Shown here in pieces: positions 7,742 to 49,860 of a stretch of 64,000 nt of DNA (its first letter is position 1; each line of letters opens with the position of its first letter). Source of the stretch: an uncultured Candidatus Saccharibacteria bacterium (GTDB lineage: Bacteria > Patescibacteriota > Minisyncoccia > Phycocordibacterales > UBA12445); the NCBI GenBank assembly GCA_964531375.1, contig CAZHDO010000001.1:96879-160878 (forward strand), given 5' to 3'. Both the position numbers and the translations under genes were made by a program. Under the pieces are notes generated by a model, which did not search any database, was not told the origin of the DNA, and was given only the letters and a program-made list of their open reading frames with translations.

Positions 7742-7856
7742 CAAGAGAGATTTGGTCATAGATAATTTTTCTGCGAAAAATTTCTACAACCCTGACTCAG
7801 CTTCCTTTCTTGTAGAAAGGGGCCCGCTTCCGTCTTTCGAATCTTGATTTTTGCGC
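7742..7856 (-). repeat. tRNA-3'-linked module, A-type (GGGCCCCTTTCTACAAGAAAGG core), distal copy downstream of tRNA-Ser(GGA)
   Basis: Minus-strand reading: CAAGATTCGAAAGACGGAAGCGGGCCCCTTTCTACAAGAAAGGAAGCTGAGTCAGGGTTG...GTGACCAAATCTCTC. Nearly identical to the cores at 22021-22075, 49640-49700 and 43300-43350(-). Confidence 0.8.
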
Positions 7857-7923
7857 TACAAAAATCATGTCGTAAGATTTCTGCAATAAAATTTCAAGAA
7901 ATTTACGACCAAACCTCTCGGCG

Positions 7924-7969
7924 CAACGACAAACCGTCTAAATGTTTGCACATTTAGACGGGTCGTTTG
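7924..7969 (-). terminator. hairpin between the two modules
   Basis: CAAACGACCCGTCTAAATGTGCAAACATTTAGACGGGTTTGTCGTTG: a long perfect inverted repeat. Confidence 0.5.
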
Positions 7970-8120
7970 CGGAGGGTGAGATTCGGCTTCGACTAAAATT
8001 TTCTTCCGAAAATTTTGTCTAGCCACCGCCTTGCTATTTTGTTCGCCAGATGCTCACAAAATTATAGCTCCAGCGTTCGAATCTCTCGCGCAGGCAAAGC
8101 AGTTTGCCTACTACCCTCCG
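7970..8120 (-). repeat. tRNA-3'-linked module, B-type (GCAAACTGCTTTGC loop inside a mirror copy of the tRNA 3' half), proximal to tRNA-Ser(GGA)
   Basis: Minus strand reads CGGAGGGT (rc of the acceptor 3' strand), then AGTAGGCAAACTGCTTTGCCTGCGC, then GAGAGATTCGAAC (rc of the T-arm). It ends with CCGAATCTCACCCTCCG, a direct copy of the tRNA 3' end. Confidence 0.8.
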
Positions 8121-8125
8121 TTCAA

Positions 8126-8151
8126 TAAAATCACCGCTTTTGGCGGGATTT
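8126..8151 (-). terminator. hairpin immediately 3' of tRNA-Ser(GGA)
   Basis: AAAATCCCGCCAAAAGCGGTGATTTT on the minus strand. Confidence 0.5.
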
Positions 8152-8159
8152 TAAACGAA

Positions 8160-8246
8160 CGGAGGGTGAGAGATTCGAACTCTCGGGGCGATTTCTCACC
8201 CACAGTCTTTCCAGGACTGCGCACTAGACCACTATGCGAACCCTCC
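8160..8246 (-). tRNA. tRNA-Ser (anticodon GGA), type II with long variable arm; CCA not encoded
   Basis: rc folds as acceptor GGAGGGT/ACCCTCC, anticodon arm CAGTC-CTGGAAA-GACTG, T-arm GAGAG-TTCGAAT-CTCTC, discriminator G. Confidence 0.8.
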
Positions 8247-8486
8247 AATATTATATTTTTTCTTTATCTTTTCTCTTTTATAACCTTTCTTATGTTCCTT
8301 TTCAATGACAACTGAATCTTTCTCGCTATCTGTTTTTGTTATTTCAAGAATTTTAAACGGTCTTCTTGATTTTGTGGAGGAAACTCTGCCATTGTTATGT
8401 TCAGATAACCGTCTTTCTAAATTATTGGTTCTGCCTATATAAAGTCCTTTGTCTTTATCGCTTTGAATTATATATATGTAGAACAT
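8232..8486 (-). CDS. GIY-YIG domain nuclease, small single-domain (COG2827/YhbQ-like)
   Basis: FYIYIIQSDKDKGLYIGRTNNLERRLSEHNNG contains the GIY...YIG...R...E...N motif order. The last 15 nt, including the stop, are the first 15 nt of tRNA-Ser. Confidence 0.75.
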   Translation of the reverse strand: MFYIYIIQSDKDKGLYIGRTNNLERRLSEHNNGRVSSTKSRRPFKILEITKTDSEKDSVVIEKEHKKGYKREKIKKKYNIGGFA

Positions 8487-8489
8487 TAT

Positions 8490-8545
8490 CGCACTGCTTT
8501 ACTAGACCCATGCCTGCCGGCAGGCAGGACTATGCGAACCCTTCA
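8490..8545 (-). repeat. partial duplicate of the tRNA-Ser(GGA) 5' segment, interrupted by a palindrome
   Basis: Minus strand: GAAGGGTTCGCATAGT, then CCTGCCTGCCGGCAGGCATGG, then GTCTAGT. Compare the tRNA 5' end GGAGGGTTCGCATAGTGGTCTAGTG. Confidence 0.65.
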
Positions 8546-8694
8546 ATATTTTAATACTATATACAAAATACTTGATACTTAATACTCGCTCAATAGGATA
8601 ATATAAATTATCTTTTATGCCAATAGCAGATTGAATATTTTAAAATGCTATAATATTTTTCAATATAGATATTGTTTGTTTAATTTAAATAAAA

Positions 8695-9102
8695 ATGGAT
8701 AAAATAATTTGGAAAATAGAATATAGCGTTGGTGTAAAGGAGATAGATGAACAACATCAGCACTTTTTCAGTGTTTTAAATGAATTGTATATATCTCAAT
8801 ATGCGAACAAAGAGAAAGAGTGGATGTTACATATTTTTGAACAGCTGGATGGTTACATAAGATTTCATTTTGCTACGGAAGAGAAATATTTTGATGAAAT
8901 AAAATATGAATATTCTGATCAGCATAAAAAGAGTCATCATGAGTTTATAAACAAAATAGAAAGTCTTAAGCAGGGTTTTGAGGACGGTAAAACAAATGTT
9001 GCTGAATCACTAGCAACTTATCTTGAAGATTGGTTTGTTAACCACATAGATAAGGCGGATAAAAAGTATACCGATATTTTTCACAAGAATAATATTTATT
9101 AA
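8695..9102 (+). CDS. hemerythrin-like metal-binding protein (bacteriohemerythrin)
   Basis: H-x3-H...E...H...H-x4-D ligand spacing: DEQHQHFF, HFATEEKYF, HKKSHHEF, NHIDKAD. Confidence 0.75.
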   Translation: MDKIIWKIEYSVGVKEIDEQHQHFFSVLNELYISQYANKEKEWMLHIFEQLDGYIRFHFATEEKYFDEIKYEYSDQHKKSHHEFINKIESLKQGFEDGKTNVAESLATYLEDWFVNHIDKADKKYTDIFHKNNIY

Positions 9103-9198
9103 TTTTTTAAAAATAACCTATTAATAGGTAGTGGAAAAATTCGGCTTGTTCGTGTTAGTATTAAATATACAGTTTATAAACAAGATAATTTAATAAAA

Positions 9199-9849: not shown

Positions 9850-10009
9850 TATCTTTTAATCATATTTTAGGCTTATTAATTGCTATTTTTTGAAGTTCCT
9901 GTTTTACTCTAAATTTTTTTTGTTTTGAAGTAATTTAAAAAAGATAGTTATCCACACTATTTTTTTTATTTTGAATTAGAATGAGCAGGTTATTAGCTAT
10001 ATTAAAAAA

Positions 10010-12334: not shown

Positions 12335-12345
12335 TTTATAAAGAG

Positions 12346-12376
12346 AAAAACCACTCATTTTGAAGAGTGGTTTTTC
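12346..12376 (+). terminator. terminator hairpin after the RNR gene
   Basis: AAAAACCACTCATTTTGAAGAGTGGTTTTTC. Confidence 0.7.
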
Positions 12377-12379
12377 ATT

Positions 12380-12723
12380 CGTCTGTACCTATAAGCCGAA
12401 TTTTGTTTCATTTCTGTGATTAAGCAGGAATGAAGATAGCTATTTATCTGGTATCAATATTACTATTGAAATCTAGCGGCACTCTTGACCTTGCGACCAA
12501 GCTCGGCCTTGCACTCAAGTAAGGATTTTGCCGTTTCACTTCTTGTATTTCTACAAGATTCACCCAGCCTCAAAAAGAAGTTGGGCGAATTTTATTTTTC
12601 AATAAAATTCGTCACTGTTCGCACCTCTATGATTACTCAAGACGGGGATTACCCGCTACTTTTTAATGAGTGTTCGGACTTTCCTCTCTTTGCAAAAGCA
12701 AAAAGTAGCTATCCGGTACAGGC
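12380..12723 (-). ncRNA. rnpB: RNase P RNA, bacterial type A
   Basis: Minus strand has P1 CUGUACC...GGUACAG, the P4 5' strand AGAGGAAAGUCCGAAC, and the 3' conserved block ACAGAAA...UUCGGCUUAUAGG. The P4 pairing CCGAA/UUCGG covaries relative to the consensus CCGGG/CCCGG. The tracked ORF 12485..12736(+) overlaps it and is spurious. Confidence 0.8.
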
Positions 12724-12857
12724 AAAAAAATTATAATACTAATTTTAGTATCTGTCTAGTTTGTATCATGTAACCTAAAATATTAGAATTAGTTCTATTA
12801 ACAGAGGTGTATTTTTTTTTATTATTCATATTTTAAATTATTAGATTAAAAAAAAAG

Positions 12858-15299: not shown

Positions 15300-15308
15300 T
15301 CCTAAATT

Positions 15309-17937: not shown

Positions 17938-17985
17938 TAAAATAATGAAGTAAATATGCTAATATTTACTGACTATATTTTTTAA

Positions 17986-18240
17986 GGGTAGGGGTAATCG
18001 AAAAGCCGCAGTCGGGCCCCTTTCTGCAAGAAAGGGAGGCGAGGCGGGGCCGAGAGTACTTAGTCCGCGCAATATTGCGAAGCAATATGAGCAGACTTAG
18101 TAACTCGTGGCTCGATTACCCGCGCAAACAAACTGCTTTGTTTGCGCGGGTAATCGAAAAGCCGGAGTATATCGCCGAAGGCGATACGAGGCGGGGTAGC
18201 GGCCGAGCGGAGCGAGAGCTGTGACTCGATTACCCCTACC
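17986..18240 (+). repeat. two tandem tRNA-3'-linked modules downstream of tRNA-Gly
   Basis: Module 1: GGGTAGGGGTAATCG (rc of the tRNA-Gly 3' end), then AAAAGCCGCAGTC, then GGGCCCCTTTCTGCAAGAAAGGG, then AGGCGAGGCGGGGCCGAGAGTACTTAG...CTTAGTAACTCGTGGC-TCGATTACCC. Module 2: the GCGCAAACAAACTGCTTTGTTTGCGCGGGTAATCGAAAAGCC hairpin, then CGAGGCGGGG...GAGCTGTGAC, then TCGATTACCCCTACC, a direct copy of the tRNA 3' end. Confidence 0.8.
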
Positions 18241-20223: not shown

Positions 20224-21516
20224 ATGCCCAATAGCGAATTTGCCCCAAATTCAAAATCTTATTTTAACCAAGATAAAAAAACAGATATAGAGTCGCAAGA
20301 TCTTGTTGTTAAAAAGGAAAAAGAAGGTTGGAACGAATTTTTGAGTGAAAATATTGATGAATCACCCACGGTCTCTGGTGGGGCTTTTTATGGCAATAAA
20401 TTAAACAAGACGAGTGATAAAGAATCTAGCGAGGAACAACAGAAAATTGATACCCATGGCGAATTAATTAAGACGCCTGAATTATTAGTCGAAGGGGCTA
20501 GGAGTATTAATGATTTAAAAGAAGTTATTAAGAAAATAAATTCTTTTACATGGGTAACTGGCAATACATACCCGACAAAAAAAGTAATAAAACAAATAGA
20601 ATATATTCAAGAAAAATTACATAATTTTAAGAAAATTGGTTCTATATCCAAAAGCAAGGTGTCAGTCTCCATTCCAGAAGAATATGGTATTCGGGATAAG
20701 GTTATTGAGCTTTTTGATAATATTTTAGCGCCTAAAAATAATGAATTAAAAAAGGAAAATAAGAAGGCAAAAGAAAATATTTTTTTCAGCAATGTTGTTG
20801 ATAAAAAAATCCGTGGTAGTTTAGATAAAAATAATAGTGTAATTAATGACACAGATAAGGTAAGTGTTGACCACGACCGACTAGAACTCCTTGCTTTAAA
20901 ACAAAAACTTGAAAAAAATATCGGTATTATATATGGAGGTGTAAGTGATGAAGTCTTAAAATACCACTTGAGTTTAATAAATCACGACCACAAGCCTAGT
21001 GGTTCAGCAGGTGGTGTTTTGGTTGAAAAGGTTGAGAAGACAAATGGCAGTGTTCTTAAGATAGACAGTAAGGAGTCTCAACGAGAGTCTGTAGATAAAA
21101 TACAAATAGAAGATAAAGAAGGGATAATACAAAAAAATACACAAGATTTAAATAAATATTTTAAAGACTTAAAAATTGCTGATCTAGAGAGCTCTCTTAA
21201 AAAACTAGAGAGCAGGATGTGGATATCTAAAAATAGCTTATTAACACTTTCTAAAGAACACAGATTCCTTTTCGAAAAACGCAAAAAGCTTATTGAGGAT
21301 GAAGGTGTTTGGGGTTTGATAAAAAGCATTTTTGGTTATTCTGCAGAGAGGGACAGTTTGAATACTAAATTACAGTCACTTGAGATTCAGTTTGGGGACG
21401 AAGGGAGGGTTAAAAAAGAAATAGAAAAAGAAATACACGACACCATGAGTAGAATAGAGAAAGAAAAGAACATAACTGGAAATCTCGCAATAGCATCAGA
21501 AAACCTACAGGAATGA
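20224..21516 (+). CDS. hypothetical protein, K/E-rich
   Basis: Long ORF, no motif. Confidence 0.5.
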   Translation: MPNSEFAPNSKSYFNQDKKTDIESQDLVVKKEKEGWNEFLSENIDESPTVSGGAFYGNKLNKTSDKESSEEQQKIDTHGELIKTPELLVEGARSINDLKEVIKKINSFTWVTGNTYPTKKVIKQIEYIQEKLHNFKKIGSISKSKVSVSIPEEYGIRDKVIELFDNILAPKNNELKKENKKAKENIFFSNVVDKKIRGSLDKNNSVINDTDKVSVDHDRLELLALKQKLEKNIGIIYGGVSDEVLKYHLSLINHDHKPSGSAGGVLVEKVEKTNGSVLKIDSKESQRESVDKIQIEDKEGIIQKNTQDLNKYFKDLKIADLESSLKKLESRMWISKNSLLTLSKEHRFLFEKRKKLIEDEGVWGLIKSIFGYSAERDSLNTKLQSLEIQFGDEGRVKKEIEKEIHDTMSRIEKEKNITGNLAIASENLQE

Positions 21517-21851
21517 AAAAACTAAACCGACTTTCAAAAAGTTGGTTTTTCTATTATATTGTTTATATGTCACAAAAATTCCAACGAACAATTGAAGATT
21601 TTGAATGTGAAAAATGCGGTAATTTTGTAATTGGTACCGGATACACAAACCATTGTCCTAAATGTCTCTGGTGTAAGCATGTTGATATTTTCCCAGGAGA
21701 TAGGTTGAATGAGTGTTTGGGGCTAATGAAGCCAATTTCTGTTATTAATGAAAAAGGTGAATTTGTCTTGGTCCATAAGTGTGAAAAGTGTGGAGAAGAA
21801 AAAAGAAATAAGACATTAAAAGAAGATGACCTATCTGTGCTCTTGCACTAG
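21513..21851 (+). CDS. RNHCP domain-containing protein
   Basis: FECEKCGNFVIGTGYTNHCPKCLWCKHVD matches the RNHCP signature (CxxCG...NHCPxCLxSxHVD). Second Cys cluster HKCEKCG. Confidence 0.65.
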   Translation: MKKLNRLSKSWFFYYIVYMSQKFQRTIEDFECEKCGNFVIGTGYTNHCPKCLWCKHVDIFPGDRLNECLGLMKPISVINEKGEFVLVHKCEKCGEEKRNKTLKEDDLSVLLH

Positions 21852-21959: not shown

Positions 21960-22006
21960 CAAAACAACCAAACAAATGTGAAAACATTTGGGTGGTTTTG
22001 TTTTGT
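21960..22006 (+). terminator. hairpin immediately 3' of the tRNA
   Basis: CAAAACAACCAAACAAATGTGAAAACATTTGGGTGGTTTTGTTTTG. Confidence 0.5.
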
Positions 22007-22007
22007 A

Positions 22008-22127
22008 GCCACAGCAGAAATTGAAAGACGGAGGCGGGCCCCTTTCTGCAAGAAAGGGAGCTGAGTCAGGGTCGCGGAAATTTTTATAATAAAAATTATC
22101 TGTGACCAATTCCTGCTGGGAGCACAA
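22008..22127 (+). repeat. tRNA-3'-linked module, A-type, downstream of tRNA-Arg
   Basis: CACAGCAGAAATTGAA (rc of the tRNA T-arm/acceptor region, 1 mismatch), then AGACGGAGGCGGGCCCCTTTCTGCAAGAAAGGGAGCTGAGTCAGGGTCGCGG, then ...TCTGTGACC, then AATTCCTGCTGGGAGCACAAA, a 21-nt direct copy of the tRNA 3' end. Confidence 0.85.
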
Positions 22128-23014: not shown

Positions 23015-23052
23015 TTTAAAAAACAGACATATTTGTCTGTTTTTTAAATGGT
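23015..23052 (+). terminator. hairpin 3' of tRNA-Phe
   Basis: TTTAAAAAACAGACATATTTGTCTGTTTTTTAAA. Confidence 0.6.
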
Positions 23053-23229
23053 TTCGAGGGAGAAAGCAAACTGCTTTGCTTTTGGGCGGACTTGAAAAGC
23101 GGAGCCATGTTGCGAACCGCCCTTAGGCGGGAGGAACAGGCGAGCTGGGGCCGAAAGTACTTAGATTTTTATGAGCAAAGCGACATAAAAAACTTAGTAA
23201 CTTGTGGCCAAGTCCGCCCCTCGGCACCA
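23053..23229 (+). repeat. tRNA-3'-linked modules (B-type hairpin plus A/D-type tail) downstream of tRNA-Phe
   Basis: TGGTTTCGAGGG, then AGAAAGCAAACTGCTTTGCTTTT, then GGGCGGACTTGAA (rc of the Phe T-arm), then AAGCGGAGCC...GGCGAGCTGGGGCCGAAAGTACTTAG...CTTAGTAACTTGTGGC, then CAAGTCCGCCCCTCGGCACCA, a 21-nt direct copy of the tRNA 3' end including CCA. Confidence 0.85.
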
Positions 23230-36618: not shown

Positions 36619-36621
36619 CAT

Positions 36622-36650
36622 AAAAACTGTCCCTAAAAGGGCAGTTTTTG
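36622..36650 (+). terminator. hairpin 3' of tRNA-Val
   Basis: AAAAACTGTCCCTAAAAGGGCAGTTTTT. Confidence 0.65.
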
Positions 36651-36651
36651 T

Positions 36652-36780
36652 TTGGGCGATAGGAAGCAAACTGCTTTGCTTCCGACAGGACTCGAAAAGG
36701 TTCTCCGTTATGTTTAAGAAATTTTTATTTCTAAAACATCGGAAACCTATACAGTCCTCGTAGAGGAAGAGTCCTGTATC
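36652..36780 (+). repeat. tRNA-3'-linked module, B-type, downstream of tRNA-Val
   Basis: TGGGCGAT (rc of the acceptor), then AGGAAGCAAACTGCTTTGCTTCCG, then ACAGGACTCGAA (rc of the T-arm), then AAGG...ACAGTCCTCGTAGAGGAAGAGTCCTGTATC. The terminal copy matches the tRNA 3' end AGTCCTGTATC. Confidence 0.8.
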
Positions 36781-42768: not shown

Positions 42769-42829
42769 ATTATTCTATGGTGTAAACCTAGAGTGGTTTA
42801 TTCACTAAAGAAAAAATTCTTTAATGAGG

Positions 42830-43012: not shown

Positions 43013-43134
43013 ATAGTGATTATATACTATTTTTTTAATATGATCAGGCGCCTTTCTTCCTAATTTTCATTTAGGATTTTTCTCGTCGAAATAGTACGGG
43101 TTTTGTTCCTGGGGTCGTTAGGACAATCAACCTT

Positions 43135-43430
43135 TCTAAAACCTACGGGGAATTTCGGTTGTTACACAACCAGTAGCCTGATTGGATTTTTTCTTCGTTC
43201 TTCGAACTCCAAAAAATGCTCAATCAGGTTTCGAATCCCCGCCGAAATATGGAGGGATACTCGGTCACGCATAAATTTCTTGGCAGAAATTTTGCTCGAC
43301 CCCGACTCAGCTCCCTTTCTTGCAGAAAGGGGCCCGCTTCCGTCTTTCGAATCCCCGTAGGGGCCCATTAAAACAAAATCACCGAATGCTTTCGCATCCG
43401 GCTCATTTGTTTTATGACCCTACGGGGATG
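43135..43430 (-). repeat. orphan pair of tRNA-3'-linked modules (A-type plus C-type) with tRNA-Glu-derived flanks
   Basis: Minus strand: ATCCCCGTAGGGTCAT, then a hairpin, then GGGCCCCTACGGGGATTCGAAAGACGGAAGCGGGCCCCTTTCTGCAAGAAAGGGAGCTGAGTCGGGGTCG...GTGACC, then ...GGGGATTCGAAACCTGATTGAGCATTTTTTG...GAAATTCCCCGTAGG. Confidence 0.8.
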
Positions 43431-43515
43431 GAAATGGAACTCTTTATTTGAAAATATAAAGAAGATTGTCGATTTGCGGGAGGAGAAAAGTTTCTAGATT
43501 AAAAGTTTTTTAAAA

Positions 43516-44748
43516 TCATTTCGTGTATTTTTCAAGGAGTTCTGTAGATGTTGAAGTTTCTGTGATATTTTTAGTTTCAATGTAAGAAACTATATTTTTA
43601 TTTATTTGTAGTGCTCTGCCGTTTTTATTATTTGTGGCCACAACAAATAAAAATTGGTTGTCTTCTCCGATAAGAAATATTTTTTCGTGATTAAAAACAA
43701 GTGTCGAATCGTTTGCAATAATTTTAACAAGTCGAGGTTCGCCACCCCCTATTACAAATGATATTTTTGGGAAAATTGTGGCGCCAAAGATAAATAATGA
43801 TGCCAATAGGGGGATGACTAGTTGTTGGGCTACAATCTGTAAATTTCCATAATTACTTATATGTTCAATAAACTTTAATTTAAGTTGTTCGGCAGGCAAT
43901 TCTGTGTTGTTTAAAAATATATATATGGTAAAAATTGAAGAAAATAACCAAGAAAATAGAAGCCCTTCGTTTATTGGCTGAAAGTAAGAAAAAGACTGGA
44001 AATCAAATAACTCAATACGAAGTTTTAAAAATGAGCAAATAGCAGTAGAAATATATAGACAGATAATTAATATGTCTAAGCTAAAAATAAAAAAAGAAAA
44101 ATAATTATTATAGGTTTTATCTTTTTCTTTTTCAGTTATAAGTATCGCCAACTGGGAAACATCGGTTTTATCAATATCTTTTTTTATCTCACACTTCCTT
44201 CTAAGAGATATTATCCAGGAGTTGATGGTTGTTAGGCATGCTATGGCAATAATAAATAGGAACAAATAAGAAAAAGAATAAAGCCAGAACTTTAATATGA
44301 AGTTTGCACCCAATGAAATATTTATCGGAATTTGTAAAATTTTTTCGCCAATAAAATCATAATTACCAAACAATGGTTTAAATATTAATATCTGATTATT
44401 TAGTGGGGTTGTATATAAACCGATTTTCATCAATTGAGATAAGGCAAGATCTGCTATCAAAAGATAAATTAATATTTGTAGATGATTTAGAAATCTTTTT
44501 TTCCAACTTTTTATTTCAAATAGTTTATCAATTGGGATATGTGCATACATCAACCATGATAGAAACATTGCCACAGTTAGAGATAGTAGTGGGTAAATTC
44601 CAGCTATAATATAACGGGTATTTATTAAATCGAAACTTACTATCCCAAACCGAGAAAGATATGCGTTTATACAGATAAAACCAAAGAAGTATAAAATAGC
44701 AGACGGTATGATGAGTATTTTAGATACTTCTTTTAGTTTGTCGAACAT
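43516..44748 (-). CDS. hypothetical polytopic membrane protein with C-terminal soluble domain (island cargo)
   Basis: About 8 hydrophobic helices. No motif. Confidence 0.5.
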   Translation of the reverse strand: MFDKLKEVSKILIIPSAILYFFGFICINAYLSRFGIVSFDLINTRYIIAGIYPLLSLTVAMFLSWLMYAHIPIDKLFEIKSWKKRFLNHLQILIYLLIADLALSQLMKIGLYTTPLNNQILIFKPLFGNYDFIGEKILQIPINISLGANFILKFWLYSFSYLFLFIIAIACLTTINSWIISLRRKCEIKKDIDKTDVSQLAILITEKEKDKTYNNYFSFFIFSLDILIICLYISTAICSFLKLRIELFDFQSFSYFQPINEGLLFSWLFSSIFTIYIFLNNTELPAEQLKLKFIEHISNYGNLQIVAQQLVIPLLASLFIFGATIFPKISFVIGGGEPRLVKIIANDSTLVFNHEKIFLIGEDNQFLFVVATNNKNGRALQINKNIVSYIETKNITETSTSTELLEKYTK

Positions 44749-44924
44749 ATTTTTTATAAAAAATATAAATTAAGTATCACTTTAAATTTAAGAAAATTCT
44801 TATTCTCTGTGTGGTTGTATTGTGTCGATACTTTTATCATATTTTTTAGTTTTATACAATAAAAATTATTTAATTTAAAAACCCTACATAGTAAATGCAA
44901 TAAATCTTTTTTTTATTAAAAAAA

Positions 44925-45136
44925 TTAAAAATCAGTAAGCTCGTTGACTTTTAGCCCTAGTGCTCCAGAGATTTTATCCATATTTGTAAGAGTAATATTT
45001 TTTTCTGCTCGTTCAATCATCCCGATATATGTTCTGTGACTTTAGCCAGTGCGCCAAGTTTTTCTTGAGAGATACCTCTTTTCATTCTTTCTTCTCGAAC
45101 CCTTTTGCCGAATTTTATAAGTATTTGTTTGTTCAT
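44925..45136 (-). pseudogene. XRE-family (Cro/CI-type HTH) transcriptional regulator carrying a frameshift
   Basis: The first frame reads MNKQILIKFGKRVREERMKRGISQEKLGALAKVTEHISG then a stop. The +2 frame continues GMIERAEKNITLTNMDKISGALGLKVNELTDF, the rest of the HTH_XRE domain. This implies a 1-nt deletion near 45017. Confidence 0.6.
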
Positions 45137-45221
45137 ATCTACACTAAAAGTGTAGATTCTTGCTAACTTTAGCTCTACATACTATAGTTAGCACATATAT
45201 TTAAATAAATGTAATTAAAAT

Positions 45222-45716
45222 ATGTTCTTAATATTAATTTTTGTGGTTATTTTATGGCTTCTGGTAAAATCATTGACCTATGATAATCAGGCAAACGATA
45301 TTGAAGTCAAAAAAGAAACCGTTATTGAATATTTGCCTTATTATAAAAAGAATTACTTGATGACAGGAGCCGAACATAACTTTTTTAAAGTTTTAAATTC
45401 TATTGTTGATAATAAATATTATATTATTCCTCAGGTTGGATTATCTAAAATCGTGGGTATTAACGGTTCTGATAGATATAACTATACTTATTTAAATAAA
45501 ATAGATAGAAAATCTTTGGATTTTGTCCTTTTCGATAAAGATAGTTTTTCTCCCATTGTGATTATCGAACTAGATGATAGCTCCCATGAAAGAGAAGATA
45601 GAAAAGAGAGAGATTCTTTTGTTGATAAAATTGCCCAAAAAATTGGTTTAAAAATTGTTCATATCAAAACTTCTTATAATTACGATTTAGAAATGTTAAA
45701 GAAAGATATTTTTTAA
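45222..45716 (+). CDS. DUF2726 domain protein (restriction-endonuclease-like fold)
   Basis: HNFFKVLNSIV...YYIIPQVGLSKIV...SLDFVLFDKDSFSPIVIIELDDSSH...KIGLKIVHI matches the DUF2726 pattern. Confidence 0.6.
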   Translation: MFLILIFVVILWLLVKSLTYDNQANDIEVKKETVIEYLPYYKKNYLMTGAEHNFFKVLNSIVDNKYYIIPQVGLSKIVGINGSDRYNYTYLNKIDRKSLDFVLFDKDSFSPIVIIELDDSSHEREDRKERDSFVDKIAQKIGLKIVHIKTSYNYDLEMLKKDIF

Positions 45717-45956
45717 ATAATTATTTCTTTGCATTTTTGTGTTAGCACAAGATAATGAGCTTGGGCATTGCTCATGTAGTATTTTCCCTTATAAGGAAGA
45801 AAATCAACCACAGGGTTTTGAACAAGTTAAGGGGTTAAATAAAGCGAATGGAATGAGCCCGGTATTGCGGTAATCAACCATAGAATCTTGCTTGTCGTTT
45901 TTGTAGGTGGACAAGATTGGTGAATTTAAAGAAATTTTAAGTGACTACTAGGTTAG

Positions 45957-46667
45957 GTGATCATGGACATTTTGTTATTTCGTGTTAGATTTCTATTTAT
46001 GGATAGTTATCTAGCAGATAAGATTAAAATTTTAGAGATGATTTGTGCGTCTTTGCCTCCGATAAATGTAATCGAGAATGACGATATAGAGTTATCATAT
46101 TTTGAAGACGAGTTTGTGTTTGAAGGATTATCCTATAATACAGCAATTAATTTATTGAGGGAGGTATTGGGCAAGGGTTTGATAAATAATTTTAATCCAA
46201 ATATTTTTGAGAATAATAAAAGAGGGATTAAATTTACTGTCGGGCGGGATATAGAAATTTATCTGAGGAAGATTAAATATCCAGGCTATGAAGATGGACT
46301 TTTGGGTGCATATATGGAACATCAAATTTTCGATAATGAAGTCCCTAAGGGTGTTTTAAAAACTCCTATTATTATTAATGATAAAAAAGGTATTTATAGA
46401 TTAGATAAACCCGAGTTGTTTTATGGAGTAAAAAATCCATCAAAGCGTTTTGATTTAATTATTTATCTTAGCTGTAAAGACAAGGTCTCGGTTTCGGAAT
46501 TAGCGAAAGAAACAAAACAGGGTCAAGCTGTAATTATGAAAGAAATAAAAAATATAAATTCTATTTTTAGAAAAAAATTAGCCGTTGTTAGTGATTTAAT
46601 TAAACATATTGAAACTAGTGGATATTCTCTTAATAAGGATGACTTTGATATAAAGATTCAAACATAA
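45957..46667 (+). CDS. hypothetical protein (island cargo), possible C-terminal winged-helix segment
   Basis: ORF. VSVSELAKETKQGQAVIMKEIKNIN is HTH-like. Confidence 0.4.
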   Translation: MIMDILLFRVRFLFMDSYLADKIKILEMICASLPPINVIENDDIELSYFEDEFVFEGLSYNTAINLLREVLGKGLINNFNPNIFENNKRGIKFTVGRDIEIYLRKIKYPGYEDGLLGAYMEHQIFDNEVPKGVLKTPIIINDKKGIYRLDKPELFYGVKNPSKRFDLIIYLSCKDKVSVSELAKETKQGQAVIMKEIKNINSIFRKKLAVVSDLIKHIETSGYSLNKDDFDIKIQT

Positions 46668-46781
46668 CCTTTGGTGGGTGTTAACAACCTCTTTTACAAG
46701 ACCTTAAAATAAGGTCTTTTTTGTCTGTAGGGTTGTCTAAAAGTTATCTTGTTAATTGATTAATCTTGTTGCTAGTCACGT

Positions 46782-46810
46782 TTCCTGCTGTCGCTTAAGC
46801 GAAGCAGGAA
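46782..46810 (+). promoter_or_regulatory. candidate rolling-circle double-strand origin hairpin upstream of rep
   Basis: TTCCTGCTGTCGCTTAAGCGAAGCAGGAA is a perfect inverted repeat, followed by the GTCGAGCGAAGCGAGAC iteron-like repeat. Confidence 0.4.
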
Positions 46811-46863
46811 GTCGAGCGAAGCGAGACTGTTTACTTGATTATAACAACACTTAGAGAGAAAGT

Positions 46864-47664
46864 ATGAAAGTTACTAATTTAAAGGTTATCGTTACTGGTT
46901 CTATAATTGAGGTTTATTTTTATCCTGAAAGGGTGCTTGCCTATGACTATCAATCAAATAAAGGCGTTAATTCTGGTGTGAATAGAATTATTGACCAAGA
47001 AGAAGATCTTAGAAACAAGGAATCATCTGTTAATCGGACTAGGTCTAATCTAAAAAGATTAATTAATGCAAATGTCTATATTCCAAACAATCCTTTTTCT
47101 CCTGTGTTTTGGACATTAACCTTTAAAGAAAATATTCAGGATTTAAAGGTTGCCAATAAAATATTTTCTAAATTTATCAAAAGACTTAATTATTTTGTCG
47201 GAAACGGGACAAAAAAGACTTTTTTAAAATATGTTGTTGTTCATGAGTTTCAAGAAAGGGGAGCTGTTCATTATCATGCTATATTCTTTAATCTTAAATT
47301 TATTCATGTAAATATTCTTGCTGATATCTGGGGTCAGGGTTTTATTAAAATAAATAAAATTGATTGCGTTAAAAATATCGGTTCTTATATTTCTAAATAT
47401 TTAGGTAAAGATCTTGCTGGTGGTAAGTTGGATGGACATAAGAGATATTTTTCAAGTAGAAATTTAAAACGTCCTATTTTTATAAAAAATCAACAGGCTT
47501 GTGAAGAAATATTAAAAAATATTCCCAAGGAATTTTTGGTTGACAGTAGGGAGTTTCAAAGTGAATATCACGGAAAGGTTTTTTATACTCAATTTAATAT
47601 TGGTAATAGTGGATATCATGCAGGTTTAATTAAAAGAGTAGCAGGACCTTGCGATAATGATTGA
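46864..47664 (+). CDS. rep: HUH-superfamily rolling-circle replication initiator (Rep)
   Basis: Motif 1 FWTLTF, motif 2 GAVHYHAIFF (HUH), motif 3 SYISKYLGK (YxxK). Confidence 0.75.
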   Translation: MKVTNLKVIVTGSIIEVYFYPERVLAYDYQSNKGVNSGVNRIIDQEEDLRNKESSVNRTRSNLKRLINANVYIPNNPFSPVFWTLTFKENIQDLKVANKIFSKFIKRLNYFVGNGTKKTFLKYVVVHEFQERGAVHYHAIFFNLKFIHVNILADIWGQGFIKINKIDCVKNIGSYISKYLGKDLAGGKLDGHKRYFSSRNLKRPIFIKNQQACEEILKNIPKEFLVDSREFQSEYHGKVFYTQFNIGNSGYHAGLIKRVAGPCDND

Positions 47665-47842
47665 TCTCCAGAAATGCCGACAAATTGCACCTGAACTTTC
47701 TGATATATCAGACGAAGATCTTCAAAAAATTCTTGATTCTCTTTACGAATTGGGTAATTTGGCTTTTGATGTTTGGATTGATAAAAATAAGAGTTCGAAA
47801 TATCCCCATAGGTCAAATGGATTAATTAAGGAGGATAAGTAA
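47657..47842 (+). CDS. hypothetical small protein (island)
   Basis: 61-aa ORF between rep and the recombinase; overlaps the rep stop. Confidence 0.3.
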   Translation: MIDLQKCRQIAPELSDISDEDLQKILDSLYELGNLAFDVWIDKNKSSKYPHRSNGLIKEDK

Positions 47843-47848
47843 AATACT

Positions 47849-49378
47849 ATGAATATGGCCGAAACAAGAAATGGAATAATTTATTGCCGAGTTTCTTCTT
47901 TGGAACAGGTAGACGGCACAAGTCTCGAATCTCAAGAGAGGGTTTGTAAGGAATATGCTCAAAGATTAAATATTAATATTACTGGAATCTTTATTGAAAA
48001 AGGAGAGTCAGCTAAAACAGCAGATAGAACAGAATTTAATAAGGCGGTAGCTTTCTGTTCTGTTAAAAAGAATCAGATCGAATATTTTATTGTATACAAA
48101 CTAGATAGGTTTGCTCGAAATCAAAATGACCATGTAGCTGTTAAGCAGATTCTAAGCAAACACGGGGTCAAATTACGCTCTACAACAGAACCTGTTGATG
48201 ACACACCAACAGGCAAACTCATGGAGGGTGTTCTCTCTTCTTTTGCGGAGTTTGATAATAATATCAGGAGAGAGAGAAGCGCTGGTGGTATGAGAGAAAG
48301 AATGAAGCAGGGGATTTGGGTTTGGAGAGTTCCTCTTGGTTACTCTCGTGTTGGTAAGGGTAAGGGAATAAATATTTCTCCAGATCCAAAATATGCCCCA
48401 TATGTTAAATTAGCTTTTGAAGAATATTCTAAAGGTATTTATACATTTAAATCACTGGCTAACTTTTTAAATGAAAGGGGTTTTGTAACTGAAAACAACA
48501 AGCGAGCCGTTCCGCAGTTAACGGAAAAATTAATTAAAAATAAATTATATTGCGGAATAATAAGTGTTCCAGATTGGAATATTGAAACCAAGGGAATTTT
48601 TGAACCAATAATAAGTGAGGATTTATTTTATAAATGTCAGGTTGGGGGCAAAAGAAGTATTCCTCATCTTGAAAAGAATATCCTATTTCCTTTAAGAAAG
48701 TTTGTCGTTTGTGAGCTTTGTAATAATCCTTTTACAGGTAGCTCTTCTACTGGAAAATGTGGCGTTAAATATCCTTATTACCATCATCAGAAACAAAAAT
48801 GTATCCATGCTCAATATATCTCCAAGGACGATTTAGAAAATAAGTTTGTGGAACTTCTAAATAAAATTAATCCTAGTCAAAAGTTTTTAAAATTATTTAG
48901 AGAAGTTGTTTTGGATATTTGGAAAAATAATTATCAAAAGATTTCAAATGATAACAAAATAATTAAAAGGGATATCGATAATTTAGAGTTAAAAAAACGA
49001 ACAATATTTAATAAACATCAATCGGGAGTTTACACAGACCAAGAGTTTATCTTTGAGAAAGATCTTGTTAATAGACAGATAGCTGAGAAGAATCTTTTAA
49101 TAAAAGACGAAAGGGAAGATAACTTTAATATGGAAGAAGCATTGGACTTTAGTATTGGATACATTAAAAACACTTCCAAAACATGGCTGGATTTAGAAAA
49201 TGATTTTGACAAGAGAATAAGGTTCCAAAAATTGATTTTTGAACAAAAATTAAAATTTATTAAAAATGAATTTGGAACTCCAAAATTAAGCCCAATTTAT
49301 GAGCTTAATAAGCAGTTTTTAGTTAATCCAACAACGTTGGTGACCCTACGGGGATTCGAACCCCGATTTCCACCGTGA
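47849..49378 (+). CDS. large serine recombinase (integrase)
   Basis: N-terminal resolvase domain GIIYCRVSSLEQ (catalytic Ser) plus YKLDRFARN, then a recombinase domain and a Cys-rich zinc-ribbon region (CELCNNP...C). The C-terminus reads through the tRNA-Glu 3' end. Confidence 0.85.
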   Translation: MNMAETRNGIIYCRVSSLEQVDGTSLESQERVCKEYAQRLNINITGIFIEKGESAKTADRTEFNKAVAFCSVKKNQIEYFIVYKLDRFARNQNDHVAVKQILSKHGVKLRSTTEPVDDTPTGKLMEGVLSSFAEFDNNIRRERSAGGMRERMKQGIWVWRVPLGYSRVGKGKGINISPDPKYAPYVKLAFEEYSKGIYTFKSLANFLNERGFVTENNKRAVPQLTEKLIKNKLYCGIISVPDWNIETKGIFEPIISEDLFYKCQVGGKRSIPHLEKNILFPLRKFVVCELCNNPFTGSSSTGKCGVKYPYYHHQKQKCIHAQYISKDDLENKFVELLNKINPSQKFLKLFREVVLDIWKNNYQKISNDNKIIKRDIDNLELKKRTIFNKHQSGVYTDQEFIFEKDLVNRQIAEKNLLIKDEREDNFNMEEALDFSIGYIKNTSKTWLDLENDFDKRIRFQKLIFEQKLKFIKNEFGTPKLSPIYELNKQFLVNPTTLVTLRGFEPRFPP

Positions 49379-49412
49379 AAGGGTGATGTCCTAACCATTA
49401 GACGATAAGGCC
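49338..49412 (-). tRNA. tRNA-Glu (anticodon TTC), CCA encoded
   Basis: rc: GGCCTTATCGTCTAATGGTTAGGACATCACCCTTTCACGGTGGAAATCGGGGTTCGAATCCCCGTAGGGTCACCA. The acceptor has two G-U pairs. Confidence 0.8.
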
Positions 49413-49487
49413 GTTTGTATTTAAAATACAAAACTAATATAACATTATTTTGAAAAAATGCAAAAAGTGTGGTAGTTTTTAGGTACT

Positions 49488-49574
49488 GGAGGCGTGGGTG
49501 AGTGGTTGAAATCACCGCATTCGAAACGCGGCAGACCTTAACGGGTCTCGGAGGTTCAAATCCTCCCGCCTCCG
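49488..49574 (+). tRNA. tRNA-Ser (anticodon CGA), type II; CCA not encoded
   Basis: Acceptor GGAGGCG/CGCCTCC, anticodon loop TTCGAAA, long variable arm AGACC..GGTCT, T-arm GGAGG-TTCAAAT-CCTCC, discriminator G. Confidence 0.75.
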
Positions 49575-49860
49575 TAAATGGCCCACTTAAATTTGAAAAC
49601 ATTTAAGTGGTTCGCCATTTTAAGAGGCGAGAGGATTTGAAGGACGGAGTCGGGCCCCTTTCTGCAAGAAAGGGAGACGAGTCGGGGTCGAACAAAATTT
49701 TCGTAGAAAATTTATGTGTGACCAAATCCTCCCGCCTCCGCAGGAGTTTGAAAGCAATTTTAAATTGCTTTCAAAAAGAGGATTTGAAGCCTGATTGAGC
49801 ATTTTTTGTCTGTAAGATTCAAATCCTCCACTGGTGGTTTTGAAAGTTAACAGTAAAATT
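49575..49860 (+). repeat. tRNA-3'-linked modules (hairpin, A-type, hairpin, C-type) downstream of tRNA-Ser(CGA)
   Basis: Hairpin CCACTTAAAT...ATTTAAGTGG. Then GAGGATTTGAA (rc of the T-arm), GGACGGAGTCGGGCCCCTTTCTGCAAGAAAGGGAGACGAGTCGGGGTCG...GTGTGACC, then CAAATCCTCCCGCCTCCG, a direct 3' copy. Then hairpin GAAAGCAATTTTAAATTGCTTTC. Then GAGGATTTGAAGCCTGATTGAGCATTTTTTG...ATTCAAATCCTCC. Confidence 0.85.

What the first reader, a model, noticed from the sequence alone, without database searches (positions are those of the whole stretch)
7742..49860. Every tRNA is trailed by small modules built from a mirror copy and a direct copy of that tRNA's own 3' half around conserved hairpin cores
Read directly from the sequence. 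All seven tRNA genes in the window have on their 3' side one to three modules of 120-300 nt with a common plan:
(i) often a terminator-like hairpin first;
(ii) a reverse-complement copy of the adjacent tRNA's own T-arm/acceptor 3' strand, for example GGGCGGACTTGAA after Phe, GGGTAGGGGTAATCG after Gly, GAGGATTTGAA after Ser(CGA), TGGGCGAT...ACAGGACTCGAA after Val;
(iii) a short purine-rich linker, GAAAAGCC or GAAAGACGG;
(iv) one of three conserved cores;
(v) GTGRC(C) followed by a direct copy of 15-22 nt of the same tRNA's 3' end. After Phe this copy includes the CCA.

The three cores are:
- type A/D, GGGCCCCTTTCTGCAAGAAAGGG followed by AG-YGAG-KC-RGGG, at 7790-7850(-), 18014-18036, 22029-22075, 43300-43350(-) and 49648-49690. 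Type D variants have a CCGCCCTTAGGCGG or TATATCGCCGAAGGCGATA hairpin instead, plus GGCGAGSYGGGGCCGARAGTACTTAG...CTTAGTAACTYGTGGC;
- type B, a GCAAACTGCTTTGC loop inserted between the mirrored acceptor and T-arm copies, at 8088-8120(-), 18122-18163, 23066-23090 and 36660-36685;
- type C, CCTGATTGAGCATTTTTTG between a mirrored and a direct T-arm copy, at 43206-43230(-) and 49775-49800.

The cores are conserved between loci while the flanks track whichever tRNA is adjacent. So each module is an extended stem-loop whose 3' strand is the local tRNA acceptor/T-arm 3' strand, a minihelix-like duplex carrying a conserved structured loop. A tRNA-flank element with this plan is not known to me.

Possible roles, all inference:
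- structured pre-tRNA trailers or minihelix mimics that act as decoys or substrates for RNase P, RNase Z, the CCA-adding enzyme or an aaRS. Four of the seven tRNAs lack encoded CCA;
- non-autonomous elements that retarget to tRNA 3' ends by copying them;
- recombination scaffolds.
Basis: partly seen in the sequence, partly recalled or inferred. Interest (0 to 1): 0.92.

Follow-up and report, generated by a model that had tools for sequence, protein, structure and literature searches.

The report
Structured repeat elements trailing tRNA genes
In this uncultured Parcubacteria genome almost every tRNA gene (and, in a relative, the tmRNA gene) is followed by small non-coding elements, not found in Rfam or the papers I could search, that clamp a conserved folded core between an inverted and a direct copy of that tRNA's own 3' end and that look mobile; how they work is unknown.

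Summary
All motifs sit at the stated coordinates and never appear in shuffled sequence.

What the elements are:
- A/D-type unit: terminator-like hairpin H, reverse complement of tRNA positions 54-72 (X'), conserved three-way-junction core, direct copy of tRNA positions 56 to about 64-73 (X). A second class (B+E) has the same plan with another core.
- Both classes have strong covariation support. All 28 modules tested fold better in the tRNA-sense strand.

Where they are:
- A covariance model finds 33 copies in 244 kb of related Parcubacteria DNA and none in 810 kb of unrelated DNA.
- Every copy lies 3' of a same-strand tRNA, tmRNA or displaced tRNA 3' end. One hit at a contig end could not be checked.
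- The tRNA-Glu modules are 6 kb away because a serine-recombinase island inserted between them.

Why they look mobile:
- Modules are present or absent at orthologous tRNAs of close relatives, and they duplicate in tandem.
- The same H plus core lineage occurs at different tRNAs with different arms.

Rfam has no match and I found no description in the literature.

Best reading (about 0.45): a non-autonomous family of insertion elements specific for tRNA 3' ends, probably expressed as read-through trailer RNA. The mobilising enzyme and the way the arms are copied are unknown. A host-beneficial trailer RNA is the main rival.

The parts
8159..8247 (-). tRNA-Ser(GGA), anchor of module array 7745-8158
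   Evidence: ARAGORN; Rfam tRNA
7970..8158 (-). Ser(GGA) hairpin H (about 8124-8158) plus module 1. Parts: inverted acceptor copy 8111-8123, B hairpin 8091-8110, inverted T copy 8076-8090, D-like core, direct copy 7970-7985.
   Evidence: Sequence; arm matches; model R1 hit 7971-8092, 31.7 bits
7863..7969 (-). Ser(GGA) intermediate hairpins: an H-like hairpin at 7925-7969 and a hairpin of a type shared with L005
   Evidence: Sequence; by-eye comparison with L005
7745..7862 (-). Ser(GGA) module 3, type A (GTAG, arm, core A with 2 mismatches, direct arm)
   Evidence: R1 hit 7740-7852, 100.4 bits
17866..17938 (+). tRNA-Gly(CCC)
17939..18125 (+). Gly hairpin region plus module 1, type A with long P3. 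Inverted arm 17984-18002, direct arm 18112-18125.
   Evidence: R1 hit 17987-18126, 88.4 bits; 33-nt palindrome with the tRNA
18112..18240 (+). Gly module 2. A B-like hairpin is formed by the previous direct arm and the next inverted arm. D-type core, direct arm 18226-18240.
   Evidence: I8; R1 hit 18143-18240, 32.9 bits
21888..21960 (+). tRNA-Arg(CCT)
21961..22125 (+). Arg hairpin H (21961-22004), GTAG, inverted arm 22008-22025, core A 22026-22106, direct arm 22107-22125
   Evidence: R1 hit 22009-22121, 116.1 bits
22939..23014 (+). tRNA-Phe(GAA), CCA encoded
23015..23229 (+). Phe hairpin H (23015-23048), inverted acceptor copy 23049-23060, B hairpin 23061-23083, inverted T copy 23084-23096, D-type core, direct arm with CCA 23209-23229
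   Evidence: R1 hit 23080-23223, 59.5 bits
36545..36619 (+). tRNA-Val(GAC)
36620..36780 (+). Val hairpin H, inverted acceptor copy 36653-36661, B hairpin 36662-36683, inverted T copy 36684-36696, E-type core 36697-36768, direct arm 36769-36780
   Evidence: consensus structure with 21 of 40 compensatory pairs
49338..49412 (-). tRNA-Glu(TTC). Its 3' end is supplied by the integrated island.
43415..43429 (-). Displaced original tRNA-Glu 3' end copy, ATCCCCGTAGGGTCA (attR-like)
   Evidence: Sequence compared with the tRNA
43251..43414 (-). Glu hairpin H (43370-43414), inverted arm 43346-43367, core A, diverged direct arm 43251-43263
   Evidence: R1 hit 43249-43362, 105.7 bits; alignment with L005
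43141..43250 (-). Glu second module, type C (E-like). Inverted arm GGGGATTCGAA, long hairpin CCTGATTG...CAATCAGG, CTACTG, mini hairpin, direct arm AAATTCCCCGTAGG.
   Evidence: parsed by eye
49487..49575 (+). tRNA-Ser(CGA)
49576..49740 (+). Ser(CGA) hairpin H, inverted arm 49622-49641, core A, direct arm 49723-49740
   Evidence: R1 hit 49625-49737, 112.7 bits
49741..49829 (+). Ser(CGA) second unit: hairpin 49747-49775, inverted arm 49777-49788, type C core 49789-49817, direct arm 49818-49829

Best explanation
These are copies of a lineage-specific family of small, non-coding, non-autonomous insertion elements, about 110-190 nt per unit. They live only at the 3' end of tRNA and tmRNA genes in a subclade of Parcubacteria (Paceibacterota).

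Anatomy of one A/D-type unit:
- H, a terminator-like hairpin whose sequence is itself conserved.
- X', a 19-nt reverse complement of tRNA positions 54-72.
- A conserved three-way-junction core. P1 is formed by the arms. The junction strand reads GAAR. P2 carries a GGA/GA internal loop. P3 carries an invariant G.U pair.
- X, a direct copy of tRNA positions 56 to about 64-73.
A second class (B+E) has the same plan with a different core and a CUGC-loop hairpin at the acceptor/T-stem boundary.

How it sits in the genome: each unit lies between two direct copies of the tRNA 3' end, the tRNA's own and X. It therefore has the form of an insertion into the segment from the T-loop to the 3' end that duplicates or restores that segment, so the tRNA stays intact.

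Dynamics: units are gained or lost, they duplicate in tandem, and the same H plus core lineage sits at different tRNAs with different arms.

Shown here: the anatomy, the exclusive tRNA/tmRNA association, the covariation, the strand, the presence/absence pattern and the arm tracking.

Inferred:
1. The arms are re-templated from the recipient tRNA. The simplest route is fold-back (template-switch) synthesis at the two hairpin-forming parts: H turns X into X', and the core turns X' back into X.
2. The elements are expressed as read-through 3' trailer RNA. In that RNA, P1 sequesters the antisense arm so that it cannot unfold the tRNA.
3. A trans-acting enzyme, not yet identified, mobilises them.
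For: Association:
- 29 of 33 model R1 hits lie 49-354 nt 3' of a same-strand tRNA or tmRNA. Three of the other four follow displaced tRNA 3' ends behind islands or insertions (Glu in the window, L019, L017); the L014 hit is cut by the contig end, and only synteny with L015 suggests a tRNA-Leu beyond it. The two L009 copies also follow a tRNA-Glu-like 3' end remnant.
- There are 0 hits in 810 kb of unrelated DNA and 0 in 18 kb of tRNA-free flank from the same genome.
- The RNase P RNA gene has no module, while tmRNA has one.

Structure:
- Type A: 87.7% of cells paired against 76.7% when shuffled and about 40% when slid. 23 pairs show double changes. 0 of 500 shuffles reach the observed value.
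- B+E: 21 of 40 pairs are compensatory.
- Core helices hold 22 G.U against 1 A.C. The sense strand folds better in 28 of 28 modules, mean -53.4 against -44.5 kcal/mol.

Arms:
- X' is complementary to its own tRNA in 9-14 of 14 modules at every position from 54 to 72. X is identical at positions 56-64.
- X' is a true reverse complement, not a copy of the tRNA 5' strand. The T-stem wobble pairs of tRNA-Arg show this.

Mobility signs:
- Filled and empty orthologous sites. For Gly: window, L003 and L118 are filled; L116, L119 and L120 are empty. For Arg: window and L116 are filled; four others are empty.
- The inserted block in L118 is bounded by 18-19-nt direct repeats of the tRNA end, and the original spacer follows.
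- L009 holds a tandem duplication (two hits with identical scores, 182 nt apart).
- The nearest neighbours of cores sit at different tRNAs.
- Glu(window) against Ile(L005): H 89% identical, core 90%, arms 45-46%.
- No gene is conserved next to the modules.
Against: - No integrase, transposase or reverse transcriptase lies beside any module. The only recombinase in the window belongs to a separate island.
- No free or circular form and no demonstrably fresh insertion was seen.
- Empty sites could all be secondary losses by recombination between the direct repeats.
- Within-genome similarity of the cores could come from gene conversion rather than transposition.
- The strong conservation of junction and internal-loop nucleotides would also fit a host function.
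- The arm-copying mechanism is pure inference. A simple outward extension of the H palindrome predicts the best match next to H, but mismatches cluster there instead.
- There is no expression data.
- All sequences come from metagenome assemblies. However, the same arrays recur in independent assemblies.
Confidence: 0.45

Rival explanations
1. Host-beneficial structured 3' trailer RNA, that is, a small RNA derived from the 3' external transcribed spacer. The module is co-transcribed with the tRNA by read-through of H. It then acts in tRNA biology or as an independent small RNA, protein-binding RNA or ribozyme. X' is kept complementary to the tRNA by selection. P1 serves as a processing or stability stem.
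For: - Sense-strand-specific structure with invariant junction and loop nucleotides and an invariant G.U pair.
- The first module starts at a fixed 49-52 nt after the tRNA end.
- X' stays complementary through acceptor positions 66-72 even where the module's own direct arm has lost that part.
- In L116, X' matches the current tRNA while X matches another allele.
- The read-through RNA can fold so that the module's X replaces the tRNA's own 3' half.
- tRNA trailers acting as small RNAs are known in E. coli (3'ETS-leuZ; from my own knowledge).
Against: - Patchy distribution. A relative with 78% LepA identity (L119) has no module at any of four tRNAs, and orthologous tRNAs differ in module number and type.
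- Tandem, truncated and degenerate copies exist.
- H looks like a bidirectional intrinsic terminator placed between the tRNA and the module.
- There is no promoter signal above chance.
Confidence: 0.25
2. Passive by-product of palindrome-driven template switching and gene conversion. Hairpins next to tRNA genes extend their stems by copying the constrained flank (the tRNA 3' half) into the free flank. Cores are merely hairpin-forming sequences homogenised between loci. There is no dedicated mobility and no function.
For: - Alternating orientation of the tRNA 3'-half copies across successive hairpins.
- The longest inverted repeats in the window are tRNA/X' pairs centred on H.
- L119 Val has an H-like hairpin with only a 7-9-nt partial X' and no core.
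Against: - Terminator palindromes after protein genes in the same window stop at the gene ends and never copy coding sequence.
- Cores occur only at tRNA or tmRNA ends.
- Mismatches in X' cluster next to H instead of far from it.
- Covariation and invariant non-canonical pairs in the core argue for selection on a fold.
Confidence: 0.12
3. Miniature remnants or satellites of integrase-driven integrative elements, similar to cis-mobilisable elements. X is the att duplication produced by a recombinase that crosses over in the T-loop. X':X forms a folded single-stranded DNA copy of the attachment site, in the style of integron attC sites or the CTX phage.
For: - Direct repeats run from the T-loop (position 56) to the tRNA end, as in T-loop-class tRNA and tmRNA integration sites (own knowledge of Williams 2002).
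- tmRNA is also a target.
- Tandem arrays occur.
- tRNA 3' ends in these genomes are real integration sites (the island in tRNA-Glu).
- Strand-specific folding is also typical of single-stranded DNA recombination sites.
Against: - No integrase sits in or beside the modules.
- One core lineage would have to carry different, tRNA-specific attachment sequences.
- Module orientation follows the tRNA on both replication strands. GC skew is uniform across the window, yet modules sit on both strands.
- There are no GTTRRRY-type boxes.
- No copies were found in viral contigs.
Confidence: 0.1
4. Orphan guide-type or retron-like RNA. The conserved scaffold (P2, P3) binds a trans-encoded enzyme such as a reverse transcriptase, a TnpB- or IscB-like nuclease, or an IS110-like recombinase. 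The tRNA-derived arms act as guide and anti-guide, or as the a1/a2 stem of a retron non-coding RNA.
For: - The layout is conserved, variable, conserved, variable.
- The topology 'arm, G, structured P2, variable hairpin P3, arm' equals retron a1-msr-msd-a2 (own knowledge).
- The scaffold followed by a 3' target-identical segment resembles TnpB omega RNA (own knowledge).
Against: - No such enzyme gene lies in the 64-kb window or in the flanks examined.
- There are no Rfam hits to the HEARO or IS605-orfB families.
- The two arms are complementary to each other rather than to adjacent halves of a target.
- A guide matching an essential tRNA gene would target the host itself.
Confidence: 0.05

Closest known systems
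Integrative elements that target the 3' end of tRNA and tmRNA genes (T-loop sublocation class; cis-mobilisable elements)
   Same: - Sits immediately 3' of tRNA or tmRNA genes.
- Is flanked by a direct repeat of the tRNA segment from the T-loop to the 3' end, and the tRNA stays intact.
- Forms tandem arrays.
- Is patchy between strains.
   Different: - Only 110-190 nt, with no integrase and no cargo.
- Carries an additional inverted copy of the same tRNA segment.
- One conserved core occurs with many different tRNA-specific arms.
- The core has an RNA-like, strand-specific fold.
REP / BIME / REPIN elements and bacterial MITEs
   Same: - Small, non-coding, hairpin-forming intergenic repeats downstream of genes.
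- Mosaic combinations of a few hairpin types.
- Non-autonomous.
- A GTAG tetranucleotide precedes the palindrome in 12 of 20 type-A modules (compare PMC3733652).
   Different: - The stem sequence is not family-specific; it is copied from the neighbouring tRNA.
- Found only at tRNA and tmRNA ends rather than dispersed.
- The loop is a 60-100-nt three-way-junction core.
- No RAYT or IS partner was seen.
Integron attC sites and cassette arrays
   Same: - Structure conserved more than sequence.
- Strand-specific folding with conserved non-canonical positions.
- Same-orientation tandem arrays at one site.
   Different: - No R'/R'' GTTRRRY boxes.
- No IntI gene and no attI site.
- No open reading frames in the 'cassettes'.
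- The site is a tRNA end.
tRNA 3' external-transcribed-spacer small RNAs, and tRNA-like processing elements (plant mitochondrial t-elements, mascRNA)
   Same: - Located in the tRNA trailer on the same strand.
- The closing stem reproduces the acceptor and T-stem strands.
   Different: - The T-loop is absent and the elbow is missing.
- The acceptor part is often unpaired.
- There are many paralogous copies with swapped arms.
- Expression has not been shown.
Retron non-coding RNA, TnpB/IscB omega RNA and IS110 bridge RNA
   Same: - A conserved structured scaffold combined with short variable segments that match a target.
- A closing stem plus conserved hairpins plus a hairpin of variable length.
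   Different: - No adjacent reverse transcriptase, nuclease or recombinase gene.
- Multicopy.
- The arms pair with each other and both derive from the same tRNA segment.

Membership tests
Any Rfam 15 family (including hammerhead, twister, pistol, hatchet, HDV-like, HEARO, IS605-orfB, tRNA, tmRNA) | Covariance-model match at the gathering score or at E<=10 | tested here: not met
   Only the tRNAs, RNase P RNA and chance-level hits were found; nothing on the modules.
tRNA-targeting integrative element | Direct repeat of the tRNA 3' segment flanking the inserted DNA, with the tRNA restored | tested here: met
   (L118 filled against L116 empty)
tRNA-targeting integrative element | Integrase gene carried by the element or adjacent to it | tested here: not met
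   The modules contain no ORFs. Neighbouring genes are housekeeping genes. The only recombinase belongs to the separate 6-kb Glu island.
MITE | Terminal inverted repeats conserved among copies and related to an autonomous IS | tested here: not met
   The inverted arms differ between copies and equal the local tRNA. No IS was found.
REP / REPIN (RAYT-mobilised) | GTAG (or CGTC) tag at the foot of a palindrome whose sequence is family-specific | tested here: inconclusive
   GTAG or ATAG precedes X' in 12 of 20 type-A modules. It can be read as a constant GTA plus G72'. The palindrome sequence is not family-specific.
REP / REPIN (RAYT-mobilised) | RAYT (Y1 HUH transposase) gene in the genome | not testable with these tools
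   None in the 64-kb window or in 18 kb of flanks.
Integron attC | R''/R' core sites RYYYAAC and GTTRRRY, and an IntI integrase nearby | tested here: not met
   The junctions read ...TYGAA|RRNCGG and GTGRC|C56. No IntI was found.
Retron non-coding RNA | Reverse transcriptase gene immediately downstream of msr-msd | tested here: not met
   Downstream genes are unrelated and have no RT domain.
Retron non-coding RNA | a1/a2 inverted repeats closing a structured msr plus an msd hairpin | tested here: inconclusive
   The topology is compatible (P1, G of GAAR, P2, variable P3). That is a resemblance only.
tRNA-like structure / minihelix mimic | Acceptor stem stacked on a T-arm with an intact T-loop and a free 3' NCCA | tested here: not met
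   The T-loop nucleotides are base-paired and replaced by the core. The acceptor part is present in only about half of the direct arms. The CCA is paired in the Phe module.
3' ETS-derived small RNA | Encoded in the tRNA trailer on the same strand | tested here: met
3' ETS-derived small RNA | Transcribed and released from the tRNA precursor | not testable with these tools
   No expression data. H looks like a terminator between the tRNA and the module.

The most novel reading that the evidence does not exclude
The modules are a new class of programmable mobile element, or the RNA part of an RNA-guided recombination or reverse-transcription system. The element recognises the T-arm/acceptor 3' strand of any tRNA or tmRNA. 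At each insertion it re-synthesises that 19-nt segment in both orientations around a conserved three-way-junction scaffold. The target is therefore copied into the element rather than the element evolving to match the target.
Probability: 0.18. Interest if true: 0.9.

Novelty: new variant of a known kind. Interest (0 to 1): 0.72.

Why it matters
- It would add a mobile or repeat element type whose specificity-bearing arms are taken from the target tRNA itself. Its conserved part is a well-folded three-way junction with no match in Rfam.
- It marks tRNA and tmRNA 3' ends of Candidate Phyla Radiation bacteria as sites of unusual genome dynamics: arrays, islands and allele replacement.
- It affects annotation, because tRNA 3' fragments and pseudo-att sites in these genomes are parts of these elements.
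- If the arms are truly re-templated at insertion, the responsible enzyme would be a target-copying activity of biotechnological interest.
- If instead the RNA acts on tRNA maturation, it would be a new layer of tRNA biology in reduced genomes.

Tried and rejected
1. Known RNA families. Rfam at gathering score and at E<=10 gave nothing. By-eye comparison with hammerhead, HDV-like, twister and group II domain V cores failed on the conserved nucleotides.
2. X' as a copy of the tRNA 5' acceptor and T-stem strands, that is, a degenerate tandem tRNA. Rejected: where the T stem has U.G or G.U pairs (tRNA-Arg in the window and in L116), X' follows the complement of the 3' strand.
3. Antisense transcription unit sharing the terminator H. 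Rejected: 22 G.U against 1 A.C in core helices, and 28 of 28 modules are more stable in sense.
4. Kissing between the B loop CUGC and a 'GUAG' loop of the E-type mini hairpin. Weakened: the consensus fold makes the mini hairpin a GUA triloop.
5. Simple outward growth of the H palindrome. This does not fit the position of the mismatches, nor the absence of such growth at protein-gene terminators.
6. Phage origin. Core A gave 0 hits in viral contigs. The 96 loci fetched with two shorter patterns look like chance matches; the 94 readable ones gave 0 R1 hits.
7. Promoter and terminator consensus scans gave nothing above chance near the modules.
8. Literature searches found no description of such elements.
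9. One look-up of a window protein was not on record.

Full report
**1.

- The window has 34% G+C, a bacterial class A RNase P RNA and seven tRNA genes.
  - Core A occurs five times, with none expected by chance.
  - Core B occurs four times next to tRNAs.
  - Core C occurs twice, and the D-type tail twice.
  - All are on the strand of the nearby tRNA.
- Downstream of six tRNAs there are exact reverse-complement and direct copies of that tRNA's 3' half.
- In the first 200 nt downstream, the reverse complement of positions 54-65 matches 10-12 of 12, against at most 9 of 12 in upstream controls.
- tRNA-Glu is the exception. Its 3' end is overlapped by a large serine recombinase gene (47849-49378). 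That gene belongs to an island of about 6 kb that also carries a Rep and a DUF2726 gene.
- A 15-nt copy of the tRNA-Glu end lies at 43415-43429, directly followed by Glu-type modules. These modules once abutted the tRNA.
- Five of the seven tRNA genes lack an encoded CCA, not four.

**2. Anatomy**

On the tRNA-sense strand a type A/D unit reads as follows.
- First comes the tRNA 3' end, or a direct copy of it.
- Then comes hairpin H, flanked by an A-tract and a T-tract.
- Then comes X', the reverse complement of tRNA positions 72 down to 54, often preceded by GTA.
- Then comes the core, and finally X, a direct copy starting at C56.

The RNA fold is a three-way junction (z-scores of -4.6 to -5.0).
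- P1 is X':X.
- The joining strand is GAAR.
- P2 is 3 bp, a GGA/GA internal loop, 3 bp, an asymmetric loop GGGM/A, and an apical hairpin.
- P3 is GGYCG.../...YGTGRCC with a variable tip.

Support on 15 distinct type-A modules (alignment A1):
- 87.7% of cells are paired, against 76.7% in shuffles and about 40% with slid partners.
- 23 pairs have changes on both sides, and 0 of 500 shuffles reach the observed values.
- Core helices hold 313 Watson-Crick pairs, 22 G.U pairs and only 1 A.C pair. One G.U pair is invariant, with an adjacent A.G or C-G position.
- All 28 modules tested are more stable in the tRNA-sense strand than in the opposite strand, mean -53.4 against -44.5 kcal/mol.

The folded form is therefore a single strand of tRNA polarity. 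It follows the tRNA on both DNA strands, although GC skew is uniform across the window. This points to RNA rather than to replication-linked single-stranded DNA.

A second class, B+E, follows tRNA-Val here and several tRNAs elsewhere. It has the same plan with another core and a hairpin with a CUGC tetraloop (7 of 8 aligned modules), inserted in X' exactly at the acceptor/T-stem boundary. RNAalifold predicts its helices independently, with 21 of 40 pairs compensatory. Type C looks like a variant of E (by eye).

**3. One family, bound to tRNA-like 3' ends**

- A scan of species-representative genomes with core A gave six loci in the Patescibacteria MAG RA.bin60 and one contig binned as Bacteroidota. 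A metagenome scan gave 11 more loci.
- In these loci the core follows tRNA-Lys, Gly, Ile, Val, His, Leu and Arg, and also the tmRNA gene. Arms match the local gene each time.
- A covariance model built from A1 (R1) recognises A, D and the Ser(GGA) module 1 as one family. It finds 33 copies in 244 kb of Parcubacteria loci.
- It finds none in 810 kb of unrelated viral contigs, and none in 18 kb of tRNA-free flank of the same genome.
- 29 of the 33 copies lie 49-354 nt behind a same-strand tRNA or tmRNA. The first type-A module starts 49-52 nt after the gene.
- Three of the four exceptions follow displaced tRNA 3' ends behind islands or insertions. The L014 hit is cut by the contig end; synteny with L015 suggests a tRNA-Leu beyond it. 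Two further copies in L009 follow a tRNA-Glu-like 3' end remnant.
- The RNase P RNA gene has no module.

**4. The arms**

- Across 14 first modules, X' is complementary to its own tRNA in 9-14 cases at every position from 54 to 72.
- X is identical at positions 56-64 in 12-14 cases, but only about half keep positions 65-72.
- X' is a genuine reverse complement of the 3' strand. In tRNA-Arg, whose T stem has U.G and G.U pairs, X' follows the complement of the 3' strand and not the 5' strand.
- The tRNA 3' half, H and X' together form the longest palindromes in the window. Terminator palindromes after protein genes stop at the gene ends.
- A read-through transcript of the Arg locus folds, at minimum free energy, with the tRNA's own 3' half paired to X' and the module's X completing the acceptor and T stems. 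The two copies are thus interchangeable in principle.

**5. Dynamics**

- LepA homologues place the window in Parcubacteria/Paceibacterota. The window is GCA_037130235.1 contig JBAXTJ010000001.1, or near-identical to it.
- Syntenic loci from relatives show presence and absence at orthologous tRNAs.
  - tRNA-Gly carries two modules here and one each in L003 and L118. It carries none in L116, where 9 nt separate it from the next start codon, and none in L119 or L120.
  - tRNA-Arg carries one module here and in L116, and none in four other loci.
  - L119 (78% LepA identity) has none at four tRNAs, while L120 (66%) has one at Phe.
  - Vogelbacteria-like and Nomurabacteria loci have none.
- Comparing filled L118 with empty L116 delimits the extra block as H, X', core and a copy of tRNA positions 56-73. 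The original short spacer follows.
- L009 holds a tandem duplication of the unit (two identically scoring copies 182 nt apart).
- Core sequences do not group by tRNA. Ile(L005) and Glu(window) differ at 2 of 69 core columns, and Lys and tmRNA at 5 of 69. Orthologous Val or Lys loci carry different subtypes.
- Between Glu(window) and Ile(L005), H is 89% identical and the core 90%, but X' is 45% and X 46%. The variable arms are embedded in one element lineage.

**6. Interpretation**

- The data fit best a non-autonomous element family that targets the 3' end of tRNA-like genes. It is bounded by a duplication of the segment from the T-loop to the 3' end, as tRNA-integrating elements are. Its arms are re-specified for each recipient tRNA.
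- How this happens is inference. Fold-back synthesis at the two hairpin-forming parts would produce X' from X and then X from X', and would explain the zig-zag of orientations.
- No mobilising protein is encoded near any module.
- The main rival is a host-useful trailer RNA. The invariant junction nucleotides, the fixed spacing and the fidelity of X' to the current tRNA (also in L116) speak for it. The patchy distribution and the degenerate or tandem copies speak against it.
- A purely mutational palindrome by-product, remnants of integrase attachment sites, and an orphan retron-like or guide RNA are less likely, for the reasons given under each rival.

**7. Comparison and novelty**

- The family shares the att-like duplication and the tmRNA/tRNA target with integrative elements.
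- It shares small size, mosaic hairpins and a possible GTAG tag with REP/BIME elements (PMC3733652).
- It shares arrays and strand-specific folds with attC sites.
- It shares the scaffold-plus-variable-segment logic with guide RNAs.
- It fails at least one defining feature of each (see the membership table).
- Rfam has no match, and six literature searches found no description.
- I rate it a new variant of known kinds (tRNA-end-targeting, non-autonomous structured repeats). There is a real chance, about 0.18, that the target-copying arms reflect a new mechanism.

Noticed in passing
window 43430-49337: An island of about 6 kb is integrated into the 3' end of tRNA-Glu. It carries a large serine recombinase (47849-49378, whose 3' end overlaps the tRNA), a Rep_ORF2/G2P-type replication protein (46864-47664), a DUF2726 protein (45222-45716), and a 410-aa ORF without Pfam hits (43516-44748, minus strand). 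A 15-nt att-like repeat lies at 43415-43429.
   Followed up: partly
window 12376-12724 (-): Bacterial class A RNase P RNA (121 bits). Only about 40 nt separate it from the convergent ribonucleotide reductase gene, and it has no trailing module, unlike the tRNAs and the tmRNA.
   Followed up: partly
window 8232-8486 (-): An 84-aa ORF lies directly upstream of tRNA-Ser(GGA) and overlaps its 5' end. It is annotated with GIY-YIG / T5orf172 nuclease domains in the matching NCBI contig (L123 2827-3081).
   Followed up: no
L019 6411-9230 (= L004): A 2.4-kb insert (HTH protein, methyltransferase, DUF3977) is flanked by a duplicated block of about 70 nt: tRNA-Ala 3' end, H and the start of a B+E module. 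It contains a further Ala-type module ending in CCA at about 8470-8640. It looks like cassette exchange by recombination within modules.
   Followed up: partly
L009 6312-6620 (-) and L017 7200-7560: Module units, including a tandem duplication with a 182-nt period, sit behind mere remnants of tRNA 3' ends next to foreign-looking genes. This suggests that islands have displaced the tRNAs there too.
   Followed up: partly
L116 20700-20915 (-): The inverted arm matches the current tRNA (3' half CCTGGCATGCGCAC). The direct arm instead matches another tRNA-Val allele (TGTGTCGCCTAC). This suggests that the tRNA gene plus the left half of the module was replaced.
   Followed up: no
L005 (JBAXRP010000226.1): A contig binned as a Bacteroidota MAG carries a tRNA-Ile with modules about 90% identical to those of the window genome. 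It is probably a mis-binned Parcubacteria contig.
   Followed up: no
L119 12700-12900: Downstream of a module-less tRNA-Gly lies a G+C-rich, apparently structured stretch of about 150 nt (GGAGATTGATTGGCCCGTGAATGCAAGCGGG...). It is unrelated to the modules and was not identified.
   Followed up: no
window 21513-21851 and syntenic loci: A small RNHCP-domain gene is conserved between tRNA-Gly and tRNA-Arg in the syntenic relatives examined (L003, L116-L121). This made the filled/empty comparison possible.
   Followed up: partly
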